Positions 39,588-52,871 of a stretch of 64,000 nucleotides of DNA are shown piece after piece. The notes beneath the pieces are model-generated. The model saw only the letters and a list, made by a program, of their open reading frames with translations. It did no database searches and was not told the DNA's origin. Within the stretch, counting starts at the first letter, position 1. Every line of letters starts with the position of its first letter. The stretch comes from Hormiphora californensis (taxonomy: Eukaryota; Animalia; Ctenophora), in assembly GCA_020137815.1 (NCBI GenBank), contig CM035360.1, positions 3,782,001-3,846,000 of the forward strand. The letters run 5' to 3'. A program made the translations under genes and the position numbers.

Positions 39588-42500
39588 TTAATGCTTTGAA
39601 ACATTCTCCGCGTACCGGCTCATAAAGTTTCCAGGGGGATAATAGTTGGCAACGATGTATACTTTGGTTCCTTTCTTGGCAATGGCACATCCCATCTTGG
39701 TTGTGCTCTTCCAGATCATCTGGAGAGGGAAGGAAATGGTTAAATTACAGTGGTGACTGGACCGTATAGGAGAGGGGTTATTGGTGGAATAAGAGAAAGA
39801 GAGGTAGGGAAACGGTTTAAATTACAGTGGAATTAGAGAGGGATTATTGGCGGAATAGGAGAGAGAAGGGGTTTTGAATTGAAACGGGTTAATGGTGGAG
39901 TAGGGAAGGCGAGGGGAGAGTTATTGGTGGAGTAGGAGAGGATCAGGGGAGGGTTAACTTCCAGTGGAATAGAGGAGGGCCATGGGAGGGAAACGGGTTA
40001 GTGGTGAAATGGAGGGGAAGGGTTTTTAAATTGAGGGAGGGGAGGCACACGATAAAAGGGATTTAGACACGAAAAGAAAGGAATTTCAACAAAAAAGGTA
40101 GTTTGGTTATTGGTACCTGTGTAAAATGTCCAGTTTGTGACTGATATCCGCTCTTATCAAAATCATATTTCTCAATCTCTCCATACCACATGTTTGACAC
40201 GTTAGTGGCCCACTCTGAGTCGCTCTTGGAGCTGACATTGGAACTCTGGAAGTAGCCACAGTTCTCACCCATTCTGAAGAGAGGGAGGGGTGTTATTGTA
40301 TACTGAGGAGGAAGGGGAGGGAGGGGTGTTATTGTATACTGAGGAGGAAGGAGAGAGAGGGGTGTTATTGTATACTGAGGAGGAAGGAGAGAGAGGGGTG
40401 TTATTGTATACTGAGGAGGAAGGAGAGAGAGGGGTGTTATTGTATACTGAGGAGGAAGGAGAGAGAGGGGTGTTATTGTATACTGAGGAGGAAGGAGAGA
40501 GAGGGGTGTTATTGTATGCTGAGGAGGAAGGAGAGAGAGGGGTGTTATTGTATACTGAGGAGGAAGGAGAGAGAGGGGTGTTATTGTATACTGAGGAGGA
40601 AGGAGAGGGAGGGGTGTTATTGTATACTGAGGAGGAAGGAGAGAGAGGGGTGTTATTGTATACTGAGGAGGAAGGGGAGGGAGGGGTGTTATTGTATACT
40701 GAGGAGGAAGGAGAGAGAGGGGTGTTATTGTATACTGAGGAGGAAGGAGAGAGAGGGGTGTTATTGTATACTGAGGAGGGGAGGGGTGTTATAGTACTAG
40801 GAAGGAGAGAGAGGGGTGTAATAGTAATTGAAATGCACGTGTGAGAATTTGAATATAAAAGAGAGTTTGAGATCAAGTAAAGAGAAGATTATGGATTGAA
40901 TTGCCTTGATCAACCCTGTAAGGGTTAGAACCAGGAACCGACCGAATCAGGAAATACTGGTCCCTGATTGGCTGATAACCAGTCACGTGACCTAAATAAC
41001 GAGTTCTGATTGGTTGTTTACTTGTTTCGGTCGGTTCCTGGATAGAACATAACACGGATTTCGATTGAATTGGTGATCGTTTGAGAGGAAGGATGAGCTT
41101 GGTTCCCATTATTTTAGGAACCACAATTTCTTACCCGCTCTCGTTGTCATGTGCCAGTGTATCGATCTCCACCAAGTGTTTCACCCACATCCTGGCGTGC
41201 TCTGCACACTCCTCACTCCAAGTTAAAGGTCCAGCACTAGGAGGGGGCAGAGGGAGAGAGTGGTAATGAGGGGGGAGGGGGAGAGGCTAGGGGATATGAA
41301 TAGAGCATTTCTAGAATTTATCTTGGGATTTGACCATTCAGTGCTCAAGCTCACGGGTCCAGCACTAGGGGGTATGACCATTGACCGCTTCATGCGATTC
41401 CGATATATAGGTTTTGTGATACCAAATACAGTTTCACGACAATTTGATAAGCTGATGTACCCATGGTGTGTATGGCGTATGCCAAGTTCCAATGAATTGC
41501 CCAATATTTACCTGTGAAGTGGCCTCTTCAGGTTATGTTGGTTCATACATTCTCTCTCAAACTCTCCCAACTCTCCGTCGAATTCGGGTTCCTGTTTTAG
41601 TTTTTCAGCATTCTCCTTGACCTTGTTATTGTTTCCTTTCTGCGATGGAGTGGGGGGTATTATTAGGGTGGGGGTTATCGGGGGATTATTAGGGGATTAT
41701 TGGGTGGGATTATTGAGATGGGATTATTTTTTCCTTTCTGAAATGGGGCGGGAATTATTATTACGAGATTCGATGGTTCGGGAAGGGATGGATAGATGTT
41801 GGGAAAGGAATCGGCGGGTTATCAAAGAGGGGATTTAAAAGGGGAATGTCTAGAAGGAAAAGAGAGGACAGGAAAATTTAAATCTAGACAGGAATGAACA
41901 ATTTATCGAATGTATGTGTCTGTGTGCATGCAGTTTGTTTGTCTGTGTGTTTGAAGGAGGGACATGATAATGTAGCGTGGTATTGTAAACATGAACAAAC
42001 TTGTTTATTTTTCTACACCATTTCCTATTCAACCAATATTGTTCGAACATTTGGCTATATATATGATGACACGTGATAGGGTTCGTGATATAGTGGTGAT
42101 CGTGATGCCGGATGCGGGTGAGTGATGATTTTTAGGAATTCGCCTTACAGTATTTCAGAGACTATTTGCTGGACAAATAACGTCATGGGACAGTGGACTT
42201 TTCCCGCAGTAGGCGACTAGTATAGGGATGATGTCATGTCATGTGAGGCAAAAGTCTCATACTTCTGAGATTTATGTGTCCCCCCCCCTGTGTTCTAAAG
42301 CTCACTATAATAATGATGGCTCTTGGCCCCACTCCAGGTCAGAGACAGAGTGGCCCCACACACTTCAATAACTAACGACTATGTAAACTAACACCACCCT
42401 ACACACTATAGAATTAACTAGGGAGCTGTGATGGTAAACTTATTAAAGTGAGAGTGGACCGACACAGAATTGGACAAGTGTCGGTCCACTCTCACTTTAA

Positions 42501-51500: not shown

Positions 51501-52871
51501 TCCATCGGTGAAGTAGACGCCACACTTGGCACACTTCAGGCAAGTGTAATGGTACGCCTTCCCGTTATACTTGAGAATGTGTCCCACAATGAAATCATTG
51601 CAAATCTCACATTTCAACCCGTAGTTGGAGTTGTAGCAGTCCTTGTGGTAGGCCTTGCCGTCCCTGAAAATTATTATTGTCAGTAAGTAGGCTATGAATC
51701 TTCTCTTCCCTAGGTATAGTAACGATCTCACCTTTCTTTCCCGTAGTTTAAGTAATAATCTCATTTTGCTCTCTCCTAGTTAAAGAAACGATCTCACTTT
51801 ACTCTCCTCTAGTTTAAGTAATAATCTCATTTTGCTCTCTCCTAGTTAAAGAAACGATCTCACTTTACTCTCCCCTAGGTAAAATAACAATCTCACCCGA
51901 TACTAACTTGGTAAGGAAGGATCCCTTGATAGGTTTATCGCACGTTGCACACTTAAAACACTCTTGGTGCCACCGTCCACCTAACGCCTTGGAAACCGCT
52001 CCACCCGTGATCTTTTTCCCACATCCCATACACACTGGGGGAGGAGGGGGTGTTAGGGAGCTGGATTATATTTGGAGAGAGGGTAAAGGCTTAGGGAAAA
52101 CAAGGATATAAATCAGCGGGGTGATCTGTTGTTATAGGGCATGAAATGAAGGGAACTGAAATTAACAGGAAAATGATCTGATATCTTGGTTTTTCCGGTC
52201 CAAGCTCCTGAATTCAATGCTTCTGAGAGAATGCTGTAAAACGTAAATCAAACACCCGGAATGCTCTCATAGTTTATATCACACACGCACACTCACAAAG
52301 CCATGGTCTTCACAGTTGTTATACACGCCTGCACCTAACAAAATACGGGGGAAATACATCACTGTGTGTATTTAGCAGTACAAAATGCTAAATATCCACT
52401 GGACCCTTCAGTCAGATCAATACTCTGACCGCTGTTCTCACGTGCTCCGAATCGAATGAGAACAGGGTCAGGACAATGCTCTGACAGGGGTCGCATTGTT
52501 TTCCACACCTAGCGAACATGAACAGCCATATCACAACACCACAGGGGATGGACGGGGGGATTCTCAGCGGTGTTTTTACCGAGCCTCTCCCCTTTTTCAT
52601 AGCACGCCAAGTGATATGTTCCATTGTCGGAGCCGTAAACTTTGATCAGAGCGGCCTTCTTGTTGTTACAAGGCTCCCCACACTCGGGACAGTTAGCTGG
52701 GTAGTTGGTTGGGTACAGTCGGACCCCGATATACCGGGATACTCGGTTTATCCTCCCGGTAAATAGGGGTTTCGGTAAATCGGGGTCCGACTGTACAATA
52801 CATCGTGGAATTGGTTAGTAAATTACAGAAATTATTAAAGAAATATATTGCTTACCATATTCTTTCGACAT
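39588..52871 (-). CDS. LIM-domain (2.5 LIM) + C-terminal CAP/SCP (GAPR-1/GLIPR2-like) protein, longest predicted isoform
   Basis: Phase-compatible exons 52856-52871, 52580-52696, 51908-52034, 51482-51663, 44692-44744, 41512-41639, 41135-41236, 40117-40273, 39588-39719. LIM: CPEC..HLAC; CMGC..WHQECFKCATC..HKDC; CEIC..YHYTCLKCAKC..HNAC. CAP: HNLKRPLH, LTWS, GEN, WYGEI, GHFTQMIWKST, VANYYPPGN. The LIM-to-CAP join is inferred from phase. Confidence 0.75.
40281..40790. repeat. 39-bp minisatellite, ~13 copies, abutting a CAP-exon acceptor
   Basis: Unit gaggggtgttattgtatactgaggaggaaggagaga(ga); produces the spurious repeat ORFs at 40265-40876. Confidence 0.95.
40932..41040. mobile_element. hAT-like MITE (CAGGAACCGACCGA family)
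   Basis: Near-identical to 7127-7235; 8-bp TSD gttagaac/gatagaac with one mismatch. Confidence 0.87.
42447..42496. mobile_element. 50-bp hairpin MITE with TTAA flanks (Kolobok-like)
   Basis: TTAA|agtgagagtggaccgacac...gtgtcggtccactctcact|TTAA. Confidence 0.7.
42756..43055 (-). CDS. Alternative first coding exon (Lys/Glu/Pro-rich, disordered) of the CAP gene
   Basis: ATG in gccATGG-like context (accATGG), 300 nt, ends AAG|gtgagg in phase 0, matching the phase-0 acceptor at 41639. Confidence 0.7.
43369..43627. repeat. 12-bp minisatellite (gtactaatctgt), ~21 copies
   Basis: Perfect tandem array; gives the spurious (TNLC)n ORF. Confidence 0.97.
43896..44114 (-). CDS. Alternative first coding exon (basic, RRxS/RQxS motifs) of the CAP gene
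   Basis: accATG start, 219 nt, ends GAC|gtatgt in phase 0. Confidence 0.65.
44849..45559. mobile_element. Non-autonomous Tc1/pogo-like element
   Basis: TA|ccttattaccactatataacggaacct ... aggttccgttatatatcggtaataagg|TA. Confidence 0.85.
45686..46090 (+). mobile_element. 5'-truncated RLE-type (CRE-like) non-LTR retrotransposon
   Basis: ORF 45690-46016 HEKEKKRVY..VEKASFTPIVFSTTG..LSFCLLK..LRGYR, homologous to 59284-59925; flanked on both sides by (AAAC)n. Confidence 0.78.
46350..46391. mobile_element. Internally deleted hAT-like MITE
   Basis: caggaaccgaccga...ggttcctg with perfect 8-bp TSD GCAATCTT. Confidence 0.8.
48005..48244. repeat. (AG)n microsatellite
   Basis: Direct run. Confidence 0.97.
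49481..51061. mobile_element. Foldback DNA transposon with TTAA TSD (Kolobok-like)
   Basis: TTAA|ggccagaggg...ccctctggcc|TTAA; long near-identical inverted arms centred ~50565; left arm interrupted by 49880-50459. Confidence 0.85.
49880..50459. mobile_element. Nested MITE with 9-bp TSD (MULE/Merlin-like)
   Basis: TIR ggtg(g/t)gcggactctagtgcta; TSD CCGTTTGGC at 49871-49879 and 50460-50468; many internal ggactct..atcta repeats and a short CCCTAA-like tract. Confidence 0.85.
52716..52793. mobile_element. Short MITE, CAGTCGGACCCCGAT family
   Basis: ta|cagtcggaccccgat...atcggggtccgactg|ta. Confidence 0.8.

What the first reader, a model, noticed from the sequence alone, without database searches (positions are those of the whole stretch)
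39588..52871. One CAP/GAPR-1 module with three interchangeable N-termini, including a 2.5-LIM fusion
Seen: four CAP exons begin at a phase-0 acceptor (41639) with no ATG or signal peptide of their own. Three upstream units end in phase-0 donors: the last LIM exon (44692-44744, which completes the final zinc finger), a basic exon rich in RRxS/RQxS (43896-44114) and a Lys/Glu-rich exon (42756-43055), the last two with their own ATG. Known: CAP proteins are mostly secreted, cytosolic GAPR-1 is targeted by N-myristoylation, and LIM arrays bind cytoskeleton/adhesions. The His/Glu/Glu/His cleft residues look retained (LAHD, GEN, WYGE, GHF) and no N-terminus has Gly2. Inference: alternative promoters swap targeting modules onto one CAP domain. 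I know of no described LIM-CAP architecture.
Basis: partly seen in the sequence, partly recalled or inferred. Interest (0 to 1): 0.8.

Follow-up and report, generated by a model that had tools for sequence, protein, structure and literature searches.

The report
Comb-jelly LIM-CAP gene, swappable front ends
This comb-jelly gene makes a spliced RNA joining two LIM zinc-finger domains to an unsecreted-type CAP domain, a fusion shared by other comb jellies and listed but never studied in 2012, and two extra exons inside it likely give the same CAP domain other front ends.

Summary
The gene anatomy is right. RNA contigs of two runs (one study) join the last LIM exon (44744-44692) to the CAP acceptor at 41639, and LIM+CAP proteins at 58-98% identity occur in several ctenophores, including Bolinopsis and Mnemiopsis. 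The architecture is not undescribed: Mnemiopsis ML064935a is tabulated as LIM-LIM-CAP, 'unclassified', in the supplement of Koch 2012, without discussion. The '2.5-LIM' form is one isoform: the half-LIM exon is an optional cassette in several lineages. The Lys/Glu exon is covered by RNA contigs whose differences keep its frame; the basic exon has six RxxS sites. Neither junction to CAP was seen, and 0 of 25 orthologous proteins held carry such a front end, so 'three interchangeable N-termini' stays a reasonable inference (about even odds for both), probably lineage-restricted. The CAP domain resembles GAPR-1/Pry1, keeps the His-Glu-Glu-His cleft and lacks Gly2. Verdict: real, a new variant of known parts; moderate interest.

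The parts
52856..52882 (-). First exon of the LIM isoform (ATG at 52871); the AG just upstream of 52882 is the likely spliced-leader acceptor
   Evidence: L001 aligns at 52888-52856 and carries a leader in place of the upstream DNA; the leader equals the 3' end of the ctenophore leader printed in PMC8527503
52580..52696 (-). Half-LIM (single zinc finger) cassette exon, 39 codons, phase 1-1
   Evidence: Skipped in P0002 and L001; a matching finger is present in 5 of 24 LIM-bearing orthologous proteins, each of which has a shorter partner in its cluster; inclusion in this species not observed
51908..52034 (-). LIM exon (LIM1)
   Evidence: L001 match; Pfam LIM on P0002
51482..51663 (-). LIM exon (end of LIM1, most of LIM2)
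   Evidence: L001 match; its 3' end is the loose end behind 44746 in X1 and X2
44692..44744 (-). Last LIM exon, completes the last zinc finger; phase-0 donor used to reach 41639
   Evidence: RNA contigs X1 (813 nt) and X2 (765 nt) lie on it and continue into CAP exon 1
43896..44220 (-). Basic exon (ATG 44114, 73 aa, 19 K/R, six RxxS) with a TATA-like box at 44220; predicted alternative first exon
   Evidence: Sequence only: open frame, donor, purine-rich like the CAP exons, RxxS excess p=0.00015 against residue shuffles
42756..43114 (-). Lys/Glu exon (ATG 43055, 100 aa, ~20-aa repeats) with 5' leader; likely alternative first exon
   Evidence: X1 contigs cover 42825-43105 with no depth in the flanking bins; 4 substitutions synonymous, one 3-nt insertion and one 39-nt skip in frame
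41512..41639 (-). CAP exon 1 (linker helix and first CAP helix), shared phase-0 acceptor
   Evidence: RNA contigs, joint 41236/41512
41135..41236 (-). CAP exon 2 (first cleft His)
   Evidence: RNA contigs
40117..40273 (-). CAP exon 3 (two cleft Glu, second His)
   Evidence: Loose end before 41135 in X2; 98% to P0001; L001
39194..39719 (-). CAP exon 4 (stop at 39588) and 3' untranslated region
   Evidence: L001 aligns to 39722-39194

Best explanation
One ctenophore gene encodes an unsecreted-type CAP domain whose spliced, conserved product is LIM-LIM-CAP, and two exons in the intron before the CAP part likely act as alternative first exons that would put a basic or a Lys/Glu-rich front end on the same domain. 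Shown: the LIM-CAP junction, its conservation, the optional half-LIM finger in relatives, RNA cover and frame-keeping variation of the Lys/Glu exon. Inferred: both extra exons splice to 41639, the nearest phase-0 acceptor, from internal promoters. Inferred function: the front ends replace the myristoyl anchor of GAPR-1. The LIM pair would dock the CAP domain on a protein partner at the cortex or cytoskeleton; the basic exon would bind acidic membrane and be released by phosphorylation of its RxxS sites; the Lys/Glu repeat would be a charged disordered tether. The CAP domain would supply the shared lipid/zinc-binding, oligomerising surface.
For: LIM-CAP junction in X1 and X2 contigs and in L001-L004. 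Four further 90%-clusters with LIM+CAP at 60-64% identity, with Mnemiopsis and Bolinopsis records. Best solved relatives of the CAP part are Pry1 (100.5 bits) and GAPR-1 (98.1) against 59 or less for secreted CAPs; model matches GAPR-1 1smb (target TM 0.68) and tandem-LIM structures. Cleft His, Glu, Glu, His invariant in 10 of 10 aligned proteins. Lys/Glu exon: contigs on 42825-43105, none on flanking intron bins; 4 of 4 substitutions away from the indel synonymous (about 0.012 by chance), indels of 3 and 39 nt. Basic exon: six RxxS (p=0.00015), TATA-like box 106 nt before the ATG (16 such boxes on the minus strand of 64 kb), and both exons open with the same 4 bases before ATG, a context of 9 of 2069 ATGs. 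GAPR-1 is anchored by myristate plus ionic interactions and stays docked without myristate in simulation (PMC13690689 abstract). Precedent for isoform-dependent localisation of an intracellular CAP: SmVAL6 (PMC7957364 introduction).
Against: 0 of 25 orthologous proteins that cover the start of CAP exon 1 have a basic or Lys/Glu front end; 24 carry LIM and 1 starts in the linker (the set was gathered largely with LIM-CAP queries, so it is biased). All 5 Mnemiopsis and 3 Bolinopsis annotated isoforms seen are LIM-type. A CAP-only search limited to 94-301 aa (7 hits among 177 candidates) and a profile search of 50%-representatives (best 150 of 14343) gave no ctenophore-like CAP with another front end. 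The Lys/Glu differences come mostly from one contig of depth 4.5, at which the tool warns of errors. The motif statistics were chosen after seeing the sequence. No localisation, partner or lipid data exist.
Confidence: 0.55

Rival explanations
1. Only LIM-CAP is made. The basic and Lys/Glu exons belong to separate nested transcripts, splice to another downstream acceptor, or (the basic one) are no longer used.
For: No orthologue with such a front end among 25; nested intronic genes are common in ctenophores (2357 in Hormiphora, PMC8527503 passage); a downstream kinase-like gene on the same strand also seems to have a phase-0 acceptor near 35790 (read by eye).
Against: Both exons end in phase-0 donors facing the only strong phase-0 acceptor with a protein-like frame in the intron; the downstream gene has its own ATG exon near 36400 and lies beyond the CAP 3' end; the Lys/Glu exon keeps its frame in RNA and has no stop before its donor.
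Confidence: 0.22
2. The three front ends exist but come from one long precursor by alternative spliced-leader trans-splicing onto internal acceptors (for example at 43110 and near 44196), not from separate promoters.
For: The LIM isoform of a close relative is leader-spliced 11 nt before its ATG; at least 56% of Hormiphora long reads carry a leader; the X1 contig on the Lys/Glu exon begins at 43105, five bases after a CAG at 43110.
Against: No leader was seen as a loose end at 43105 among the rows shown (18 rows not shown); the same place is also an initiator-like TCAGTT (a recalled fly motif, 1.5 per kb here); the basic exon has a TATA-like box.
Confidence: 0.15
3. The Lys/Glu exon is an internal cassette entered at a phase-1 acceptor at 43042, exclusive with the last LIM exon, giving a 1.5-LIM + Lys/Glu + CAP protein.
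For: The acceptor follows an AG-free pyrimidine-rich stretch and the joined frame is open.
Against: The X1 contig runs across 43042 up to 43105, as a first exon would; the product would break the last zinc finger.
Confidence: 0.06

Closest known systems
Mnemiopsis leidyi ML064935a (AEY80354.1, 'unclassified LIM protein') and Bolinopsis microptera XP_063690846-848 ('venom allergen 5-like' X1-X3)
   Same: Orthologues: LIM-LIM-CAP, about 60% identical, same optional half-LIM finger. Architecture listed in Table S1 of PMC3305314.
   Different: No annotated isoform seen there has a basic or Lys/Glu front end; the 'venom allergen' name is misleading for a protein without signal peptide.
GAPR-1/GLIPR2 and other group 2 (intracellular) CAP/SCP-TAPS proteins
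   Same: Closest solved animal relative of the CAP part; cleft tetrad kept; no signal peptide; lacks the disulfide set of secreted CAPs.
   Different: No Gly2 for myristoylation; LIM or charged front ends instead; orthology to GAPR-1 not tested with a tree.
Schistosoma mansoni SmVAL6
   Same: Intracellular CAP with alternatively spliced appendage whose isoforms differ in membrane versus cytosol location.
   Different: The variable part is C-terminal and made of many micro-exons; no LIM domain.
FHL / paxillin / zyxin tandem-LIM adaptors
   Same: Tandem LIMs with an 8-residue linker; an optional N-terminal half-LIM recalls FHL (recalled).
   Different: Only two full LIMs; strain sensors have three or more; none is known to me to carry a CAP domain.

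Membership tests
CAP (SCP/TAPS) superfamily | Pfam PF00188 above cut-off and alpha-beta-alpha fold | tested here: met
   67.5 bits against 21.1 for the 97%-identical P0002; model aligns to 1smb, 5jys, 1cfe
CAP (SCP/TAPS) superfamily | His-Glu-Glu-His cleft residues | tested here: met
   Invariant in 10 of 10; aligned to GAPR-1 and Pry1; GAPR-1 His54/His103 bind zinc (PMC6900432 passages)
Group 2 (intracellular) CAP proteins | No signal peptide | tested here: met
   Longest hydrophobic run 2 residues in both charged exons; LIM form starts with a zinc finger. No dedicated predictor was run.
Group 2 (intracellular) CAP proteins | Lacks the six conserved cysteines; keeps the helix-1 His and helix-3 Tyr | tested here: met
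   Four Cys in the window's CAP part, none in the last strand where secreted CAPs have one; HN and WY motifs align with GAPR-1 (definition). Read by eye.
Group 2 (intracellular) CAP proteins | Phylogenetic grouping; D1 deletion and I1 insertion | not tested
   No tree built; only bit scores
Group 2 SmVAL gene structure | Two phase-1 introns in the domain (schistosome feature) | tested here: not met
   CAP introns here are phase 2, 2, 0 (definition)
GAPR-1/GLIPR2 | N-myristoylated Gly2 | tested here: not met
   No Gly2 in the three window front ends or in 8 of 8 relatives checked
GAPR-1/GLIPR2 | Golgi location, Beclin 1 binding | not testable with these tools
   Needs experiments
LIM-domain proteins | Double zinc finger, Pfam PF00412 | tested here: met
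   Two stretches, 69.8 bits; matches to PINCH, LHX, LMO, testin LIM pairs. The last finger ends HxxC in all 10 aligned proteins.
Strained-actin-sensing LIM proteins (zyxin, paxillin, FHL) | Three or more tandem LIMs | tested here: not met
   Two, at most two and a half (rule)
Strained-actin-sensing LIM proteins (zyxin, paxillin, FHL) | 7-8 residue linker | tested here: met
   8 residues in 10 of 10
Strained-actin-sensing LIM proteins (zyxin, paxillin, FHL) | Conserved Phe in each LIM | tested here: inconclusive
   LIM1 has two invariant Phe, LIM2 lacks them at the matching places; which one is the functional site was not mapped by alignment

The most novel reading that the evidence does not exclude
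Ctenophores invented a LIM-targeted intracellular CAP protein, and this lineage turned the gene into a three-way switch in which promoter choice or alternative leader trans-splicing puts one CAP domain on a LIM adaptor, on a phosphorylation-released basic membrane anchor, or on a Lys/Glu tether: a natural experiment on what intracellular CAP domains do when the myristoyl anchor is replaced.
Probability: 0.45. Interest if true: 0.62.

Novelty: new variant of a known kind. Interest (0 to 1): 0.42.

Why it matters
The common function of the CAP domain is still open, and its intracellular members are known mainly from GAPR-1 and SmVAL6. A LIM-CAP protein kept at about 60% identity across comb jellies says that a CAP domain works in the cytosol while tethered by a protein-binding module, and it can be studied in Mnemiopsis. 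If the two extra first exons are confirmed, one gene would offer three localisation variants of an identical CAP domain. The parts and the mechanism (alternative first exons) are ordinary, and the fusion already stands in databases and in a 2012 supplement, which limits surprise.

Tried and rejected
No whole genome is held for this window, so other copies of the exons could be sought only in the window (none). The basic exon had no cover in the 3 runs laid, and no contig covered 42756-42824 or joined the Lys/Glu exon to CAP among the rows shown (18 loose ends and 80 pieces not shown); contigs drop rare variants, so this is no evidence of absence. Exact look-up of 6 single-exon or read-through peptides: 0 of 6 in the collection, the two CAP controls included, so uninformative. 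ESM Atlas: no usable hit for the basic exon; one weak CAP cluster for P0002 (0.75). Pfam: nothing on the two charged exons. tblastn of both against the 47 loci: nothing. LIM profile over 199 proteins and 47 loci: hits only in the ctenophore set, none among the other CAP hits; that sample was chosen by CAP similarity, so LIM-CAP fusions elsewhere are not excluded. CAP homodimer prediction: no answer (score 0.00). A Met-Gly-x-Cys start at 45974 that could have been a myristoylated fourth front end was rejected: it lies antisense in a mobile-element-like remnant (55% identical to a longer copy at 59257-59925) and stops after 22 codons. A possible LIM-only terminal exon at 44551 is not what the RNA contigs use. 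Strained-actin sensor reading: fails the three-LIM rule. Literature: 'ctenophore'+'GAPR-1' 0 papers; 'ML064935' 0 main texts; searches listed no paper on a LIM-CAP protein (6 of 6, 20 of 23 and 15 of 207 listings seen). Earlier scan notes: nothing.
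Full report
Observation. Five LIM-side exons, a 3052-base intron containing two ATG-led exons, and four CAP exons were placed by script. The last LIM exon (44744-44692), the basic exon (44114-43896) and the Lys/Glu exon (43055-42756) each end in phase 0, and each reads in frame into the acceptor at 41639, giving 337 aa (298 without the half-LIM exon), 245 aa and 272 aa. 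The organism is a ctenophore: the named relatives are Bolinopsis and Mnemiopsis, and a transcript 90% identical in DNA (L001; 91 of 897 coding bases and 5 of 298 residues differ) starts with the 3' end of the ctenophore spliced leader printed in PMC8527503 (passages).

The LIM-CAP junction is real. Three runs were offered and laid on two stretches. In X1 an 813-nt contig lies on 44696-44746, then 41512-41640, then 41135-41236; in X2 a 765-nt contig does the same; the loose ends are the start of CAP exon 1 and the end of the 51482 exon. X1 and X2 are one study; X3 did not cover the gene. L001-L004 are further continuous LIM-CAP transcripts. A search with CAP exon 3 found P0001, with LIM and CAP Pfam families, and a search with P0001 found four more clusters at 60-64% identity (5 of 21 hits carry both families).

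It is already on record. One cluster holds Bolinopsis XP_063690846-848, five Mnemiopsis isoforms and 'unclassified LIM protein ML064935a'. Table S1 of Koch et al. 2012 (PMC3305314; supplement rows seen) lists that gene as LIM, LIM, CAP, and a second Mnemiopsis model, ML46393a, with SH3, LIM and a weak CAP hit. The section on unclassified proteins (read whole) does not mention either, and the gene name does not occur in the main text. Searches for a study of the protein found none; subscription journals and most supplements are outside these searches.

The half-LIM is optional. P0002 and L001, the nearest transcripts, splice from exon 1 straight to 52034. Long and short forms stand side by side in Bolinopsis (335/300 aa), Mnemiopsis (335/300 aa) and an unnamed lineage (P0044 335, P0004 302 aa), and their extra finger aligns with the window's exon 52696-52580. 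Five of 24 LIM-bearing proteins have it. So '2.5-LIM' is the predicted long isoform of a conserved cassette.

The Lys/Glu exon. X1 contigs of 227, 87 and 79 nt cover 42825-43105, while neighbouring intron bins have no depth. Of five substitutions, four are synonymous third positions and the fifth adjoins a 3-nt insertion; a second contig skips 39 nt within the repeat. Four of four synonymous has a chance of about 0.012, but most differences come from one contig of depth 4.5. The contig crosses the ATG and begins 50 bases before it, which fits a first exon and argues against use of an in-frame internal acceptor at 43042. The join to CAP was not seen.

The basic exon rests on sequence alone: 73 open codons, a GTATGT donor, purine content like the CAP exons (0.68 against 0.38-0.46 in flanking intron), 19 Lys/Arg, six RxxS (p=0.00015 in 20000 residue shuffles; motif chosen after inspection), a TATA-like box at 44220, and the same four bases before ATG as the Lys/Glu exon (9 of 2069 ATGs). 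Reading RxxS as sites for basophilic kinases is from my own knowledge.

Against generality: of 199 proteins held, 25 orthologues cover the start of CAP exon 1; 24 carry LIM, one starts in the linker, none has another front end. The CAP-only search and the profile search added none; forms sharing the CAP part could be hidden in the 50% cluster, and the collection does not hold this species' genomic peptides. The extra exons are therefore either lineage-restricted, rarely expressed, or not joined to CAP. I put the Lys/Glu join at about 0.75, the basic join at about 0.6, both at about 0.5.

What the domains are. The CAP part scores best against yeast Pry1 and human GAPR-1, far above secreted CAPs; the predicted model (mean pLDDT 71, pTM 0.48) matches GAPR-1 and tandem LIM structures as separate units. 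The cleft tetrad is invariant. There is no signal peptide and no Gly2. This fits the intracellular group 2 of PMC2270263 and PMC3435950 (passages), apart from the schistosome intron phases; no tree was built. The LIM pair has the 8-residue linker of strain-sensing LIM proteins but not three domains (bioRxiv 2020.03.06.979245 and .980649, passages), so a plain adaptor role is more likely than force sensing.

Mechanism. GAPR-1 is held at membranes by myristate and ionic contacts, binds zinc through two cleft histidines and oligomerises (PMC13690689 abstract; PMC6900432 passages). Here the anchor is missing and a front end takes its place. I infer that the LIM pair tethers the CAP domain to a protein partner, that the basic exon is a phosphorylation-released anchor to acidic membrane, and that the Lys/Glu repeat is a charged tether. 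SmVAL6 gives a precedent for isoform-dependent location of an intracellular CAP (PMC7957364 abstract and introduction). All functional steps are untested. Because the LIM isoform is leader-spliced in a relative, alternative trans-splicing is a live alternative to internal promoters.

Verdict. A real, conserved ctenophore LIM-CAP gene, catalogued but unstudied, with a conserved half-LIM cassette and two plausible but unproven alternative first exons. New variant of a known kind; interest 0.42.

Noticed in passing
PMC3305314 Table S1 row 310 (Mnemiopsis ML46393a): A second Mnemiopsis model with SH3, LIM and a weak CAP hit (E 0.00022); may be another LIM-CAP architecture or a fused gene model.
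   Followed up: no
window 54439-58619 (-): Apparently intact LINE: 410-aa ORF1-like frame and 989-aa endonuclease + reverse transcriptase frame, 1.5 kb upstream of the LIM start.
   Followed up: partly
window 45600-46016 (+) and 59257-59925 (+): Two remnants of one mobile-element-like protein, 55% identical over 107 aa; no Pfam hit for the shorter.
   Followed up: partly
window 49477-51065: The intron after the fourth LIM exon holds a ~1.6-kb element with long inverted ends (near-identical ORFs on opposite strands at 49477-49891 and 50654-51065), inserted in a 38-44-nt repeat that copies the exon's 3' end and donor many times.
   Followed up: no
window ~30000-36420 (-): Next gene downstream looks like a type II phosphatidylinositol 4-kinase by recalled motifs, with its own first exon near 36400; Pfam gave no hit on the two exon pieces tested.
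   Followed up: partly
window 4590-24700 (-) with 7919-9459, 11496-17027 and 22589-23656 (+): A multi-exon S9 peptidase gene appears to host opposite-strand genes: a glycosyltransferase-2 + ricin-lectin gene in two adjacent ORFs, tandem sushi/HRM-linked repeat units, and an intronless membrane protein.
   Followed up: partly
window 3295-3741 (-): Sua5/YrdC-family ORF.
   Followed up: no
window 40921-41050, 46349-46384, 7124-7234, 27911-28022; L001 1278-1407: A short interspersed repeat, very abundant in the RNA runs; a copy sits in the 3' untranslated region of L001 but not at that place in the window.
   Followed up: no
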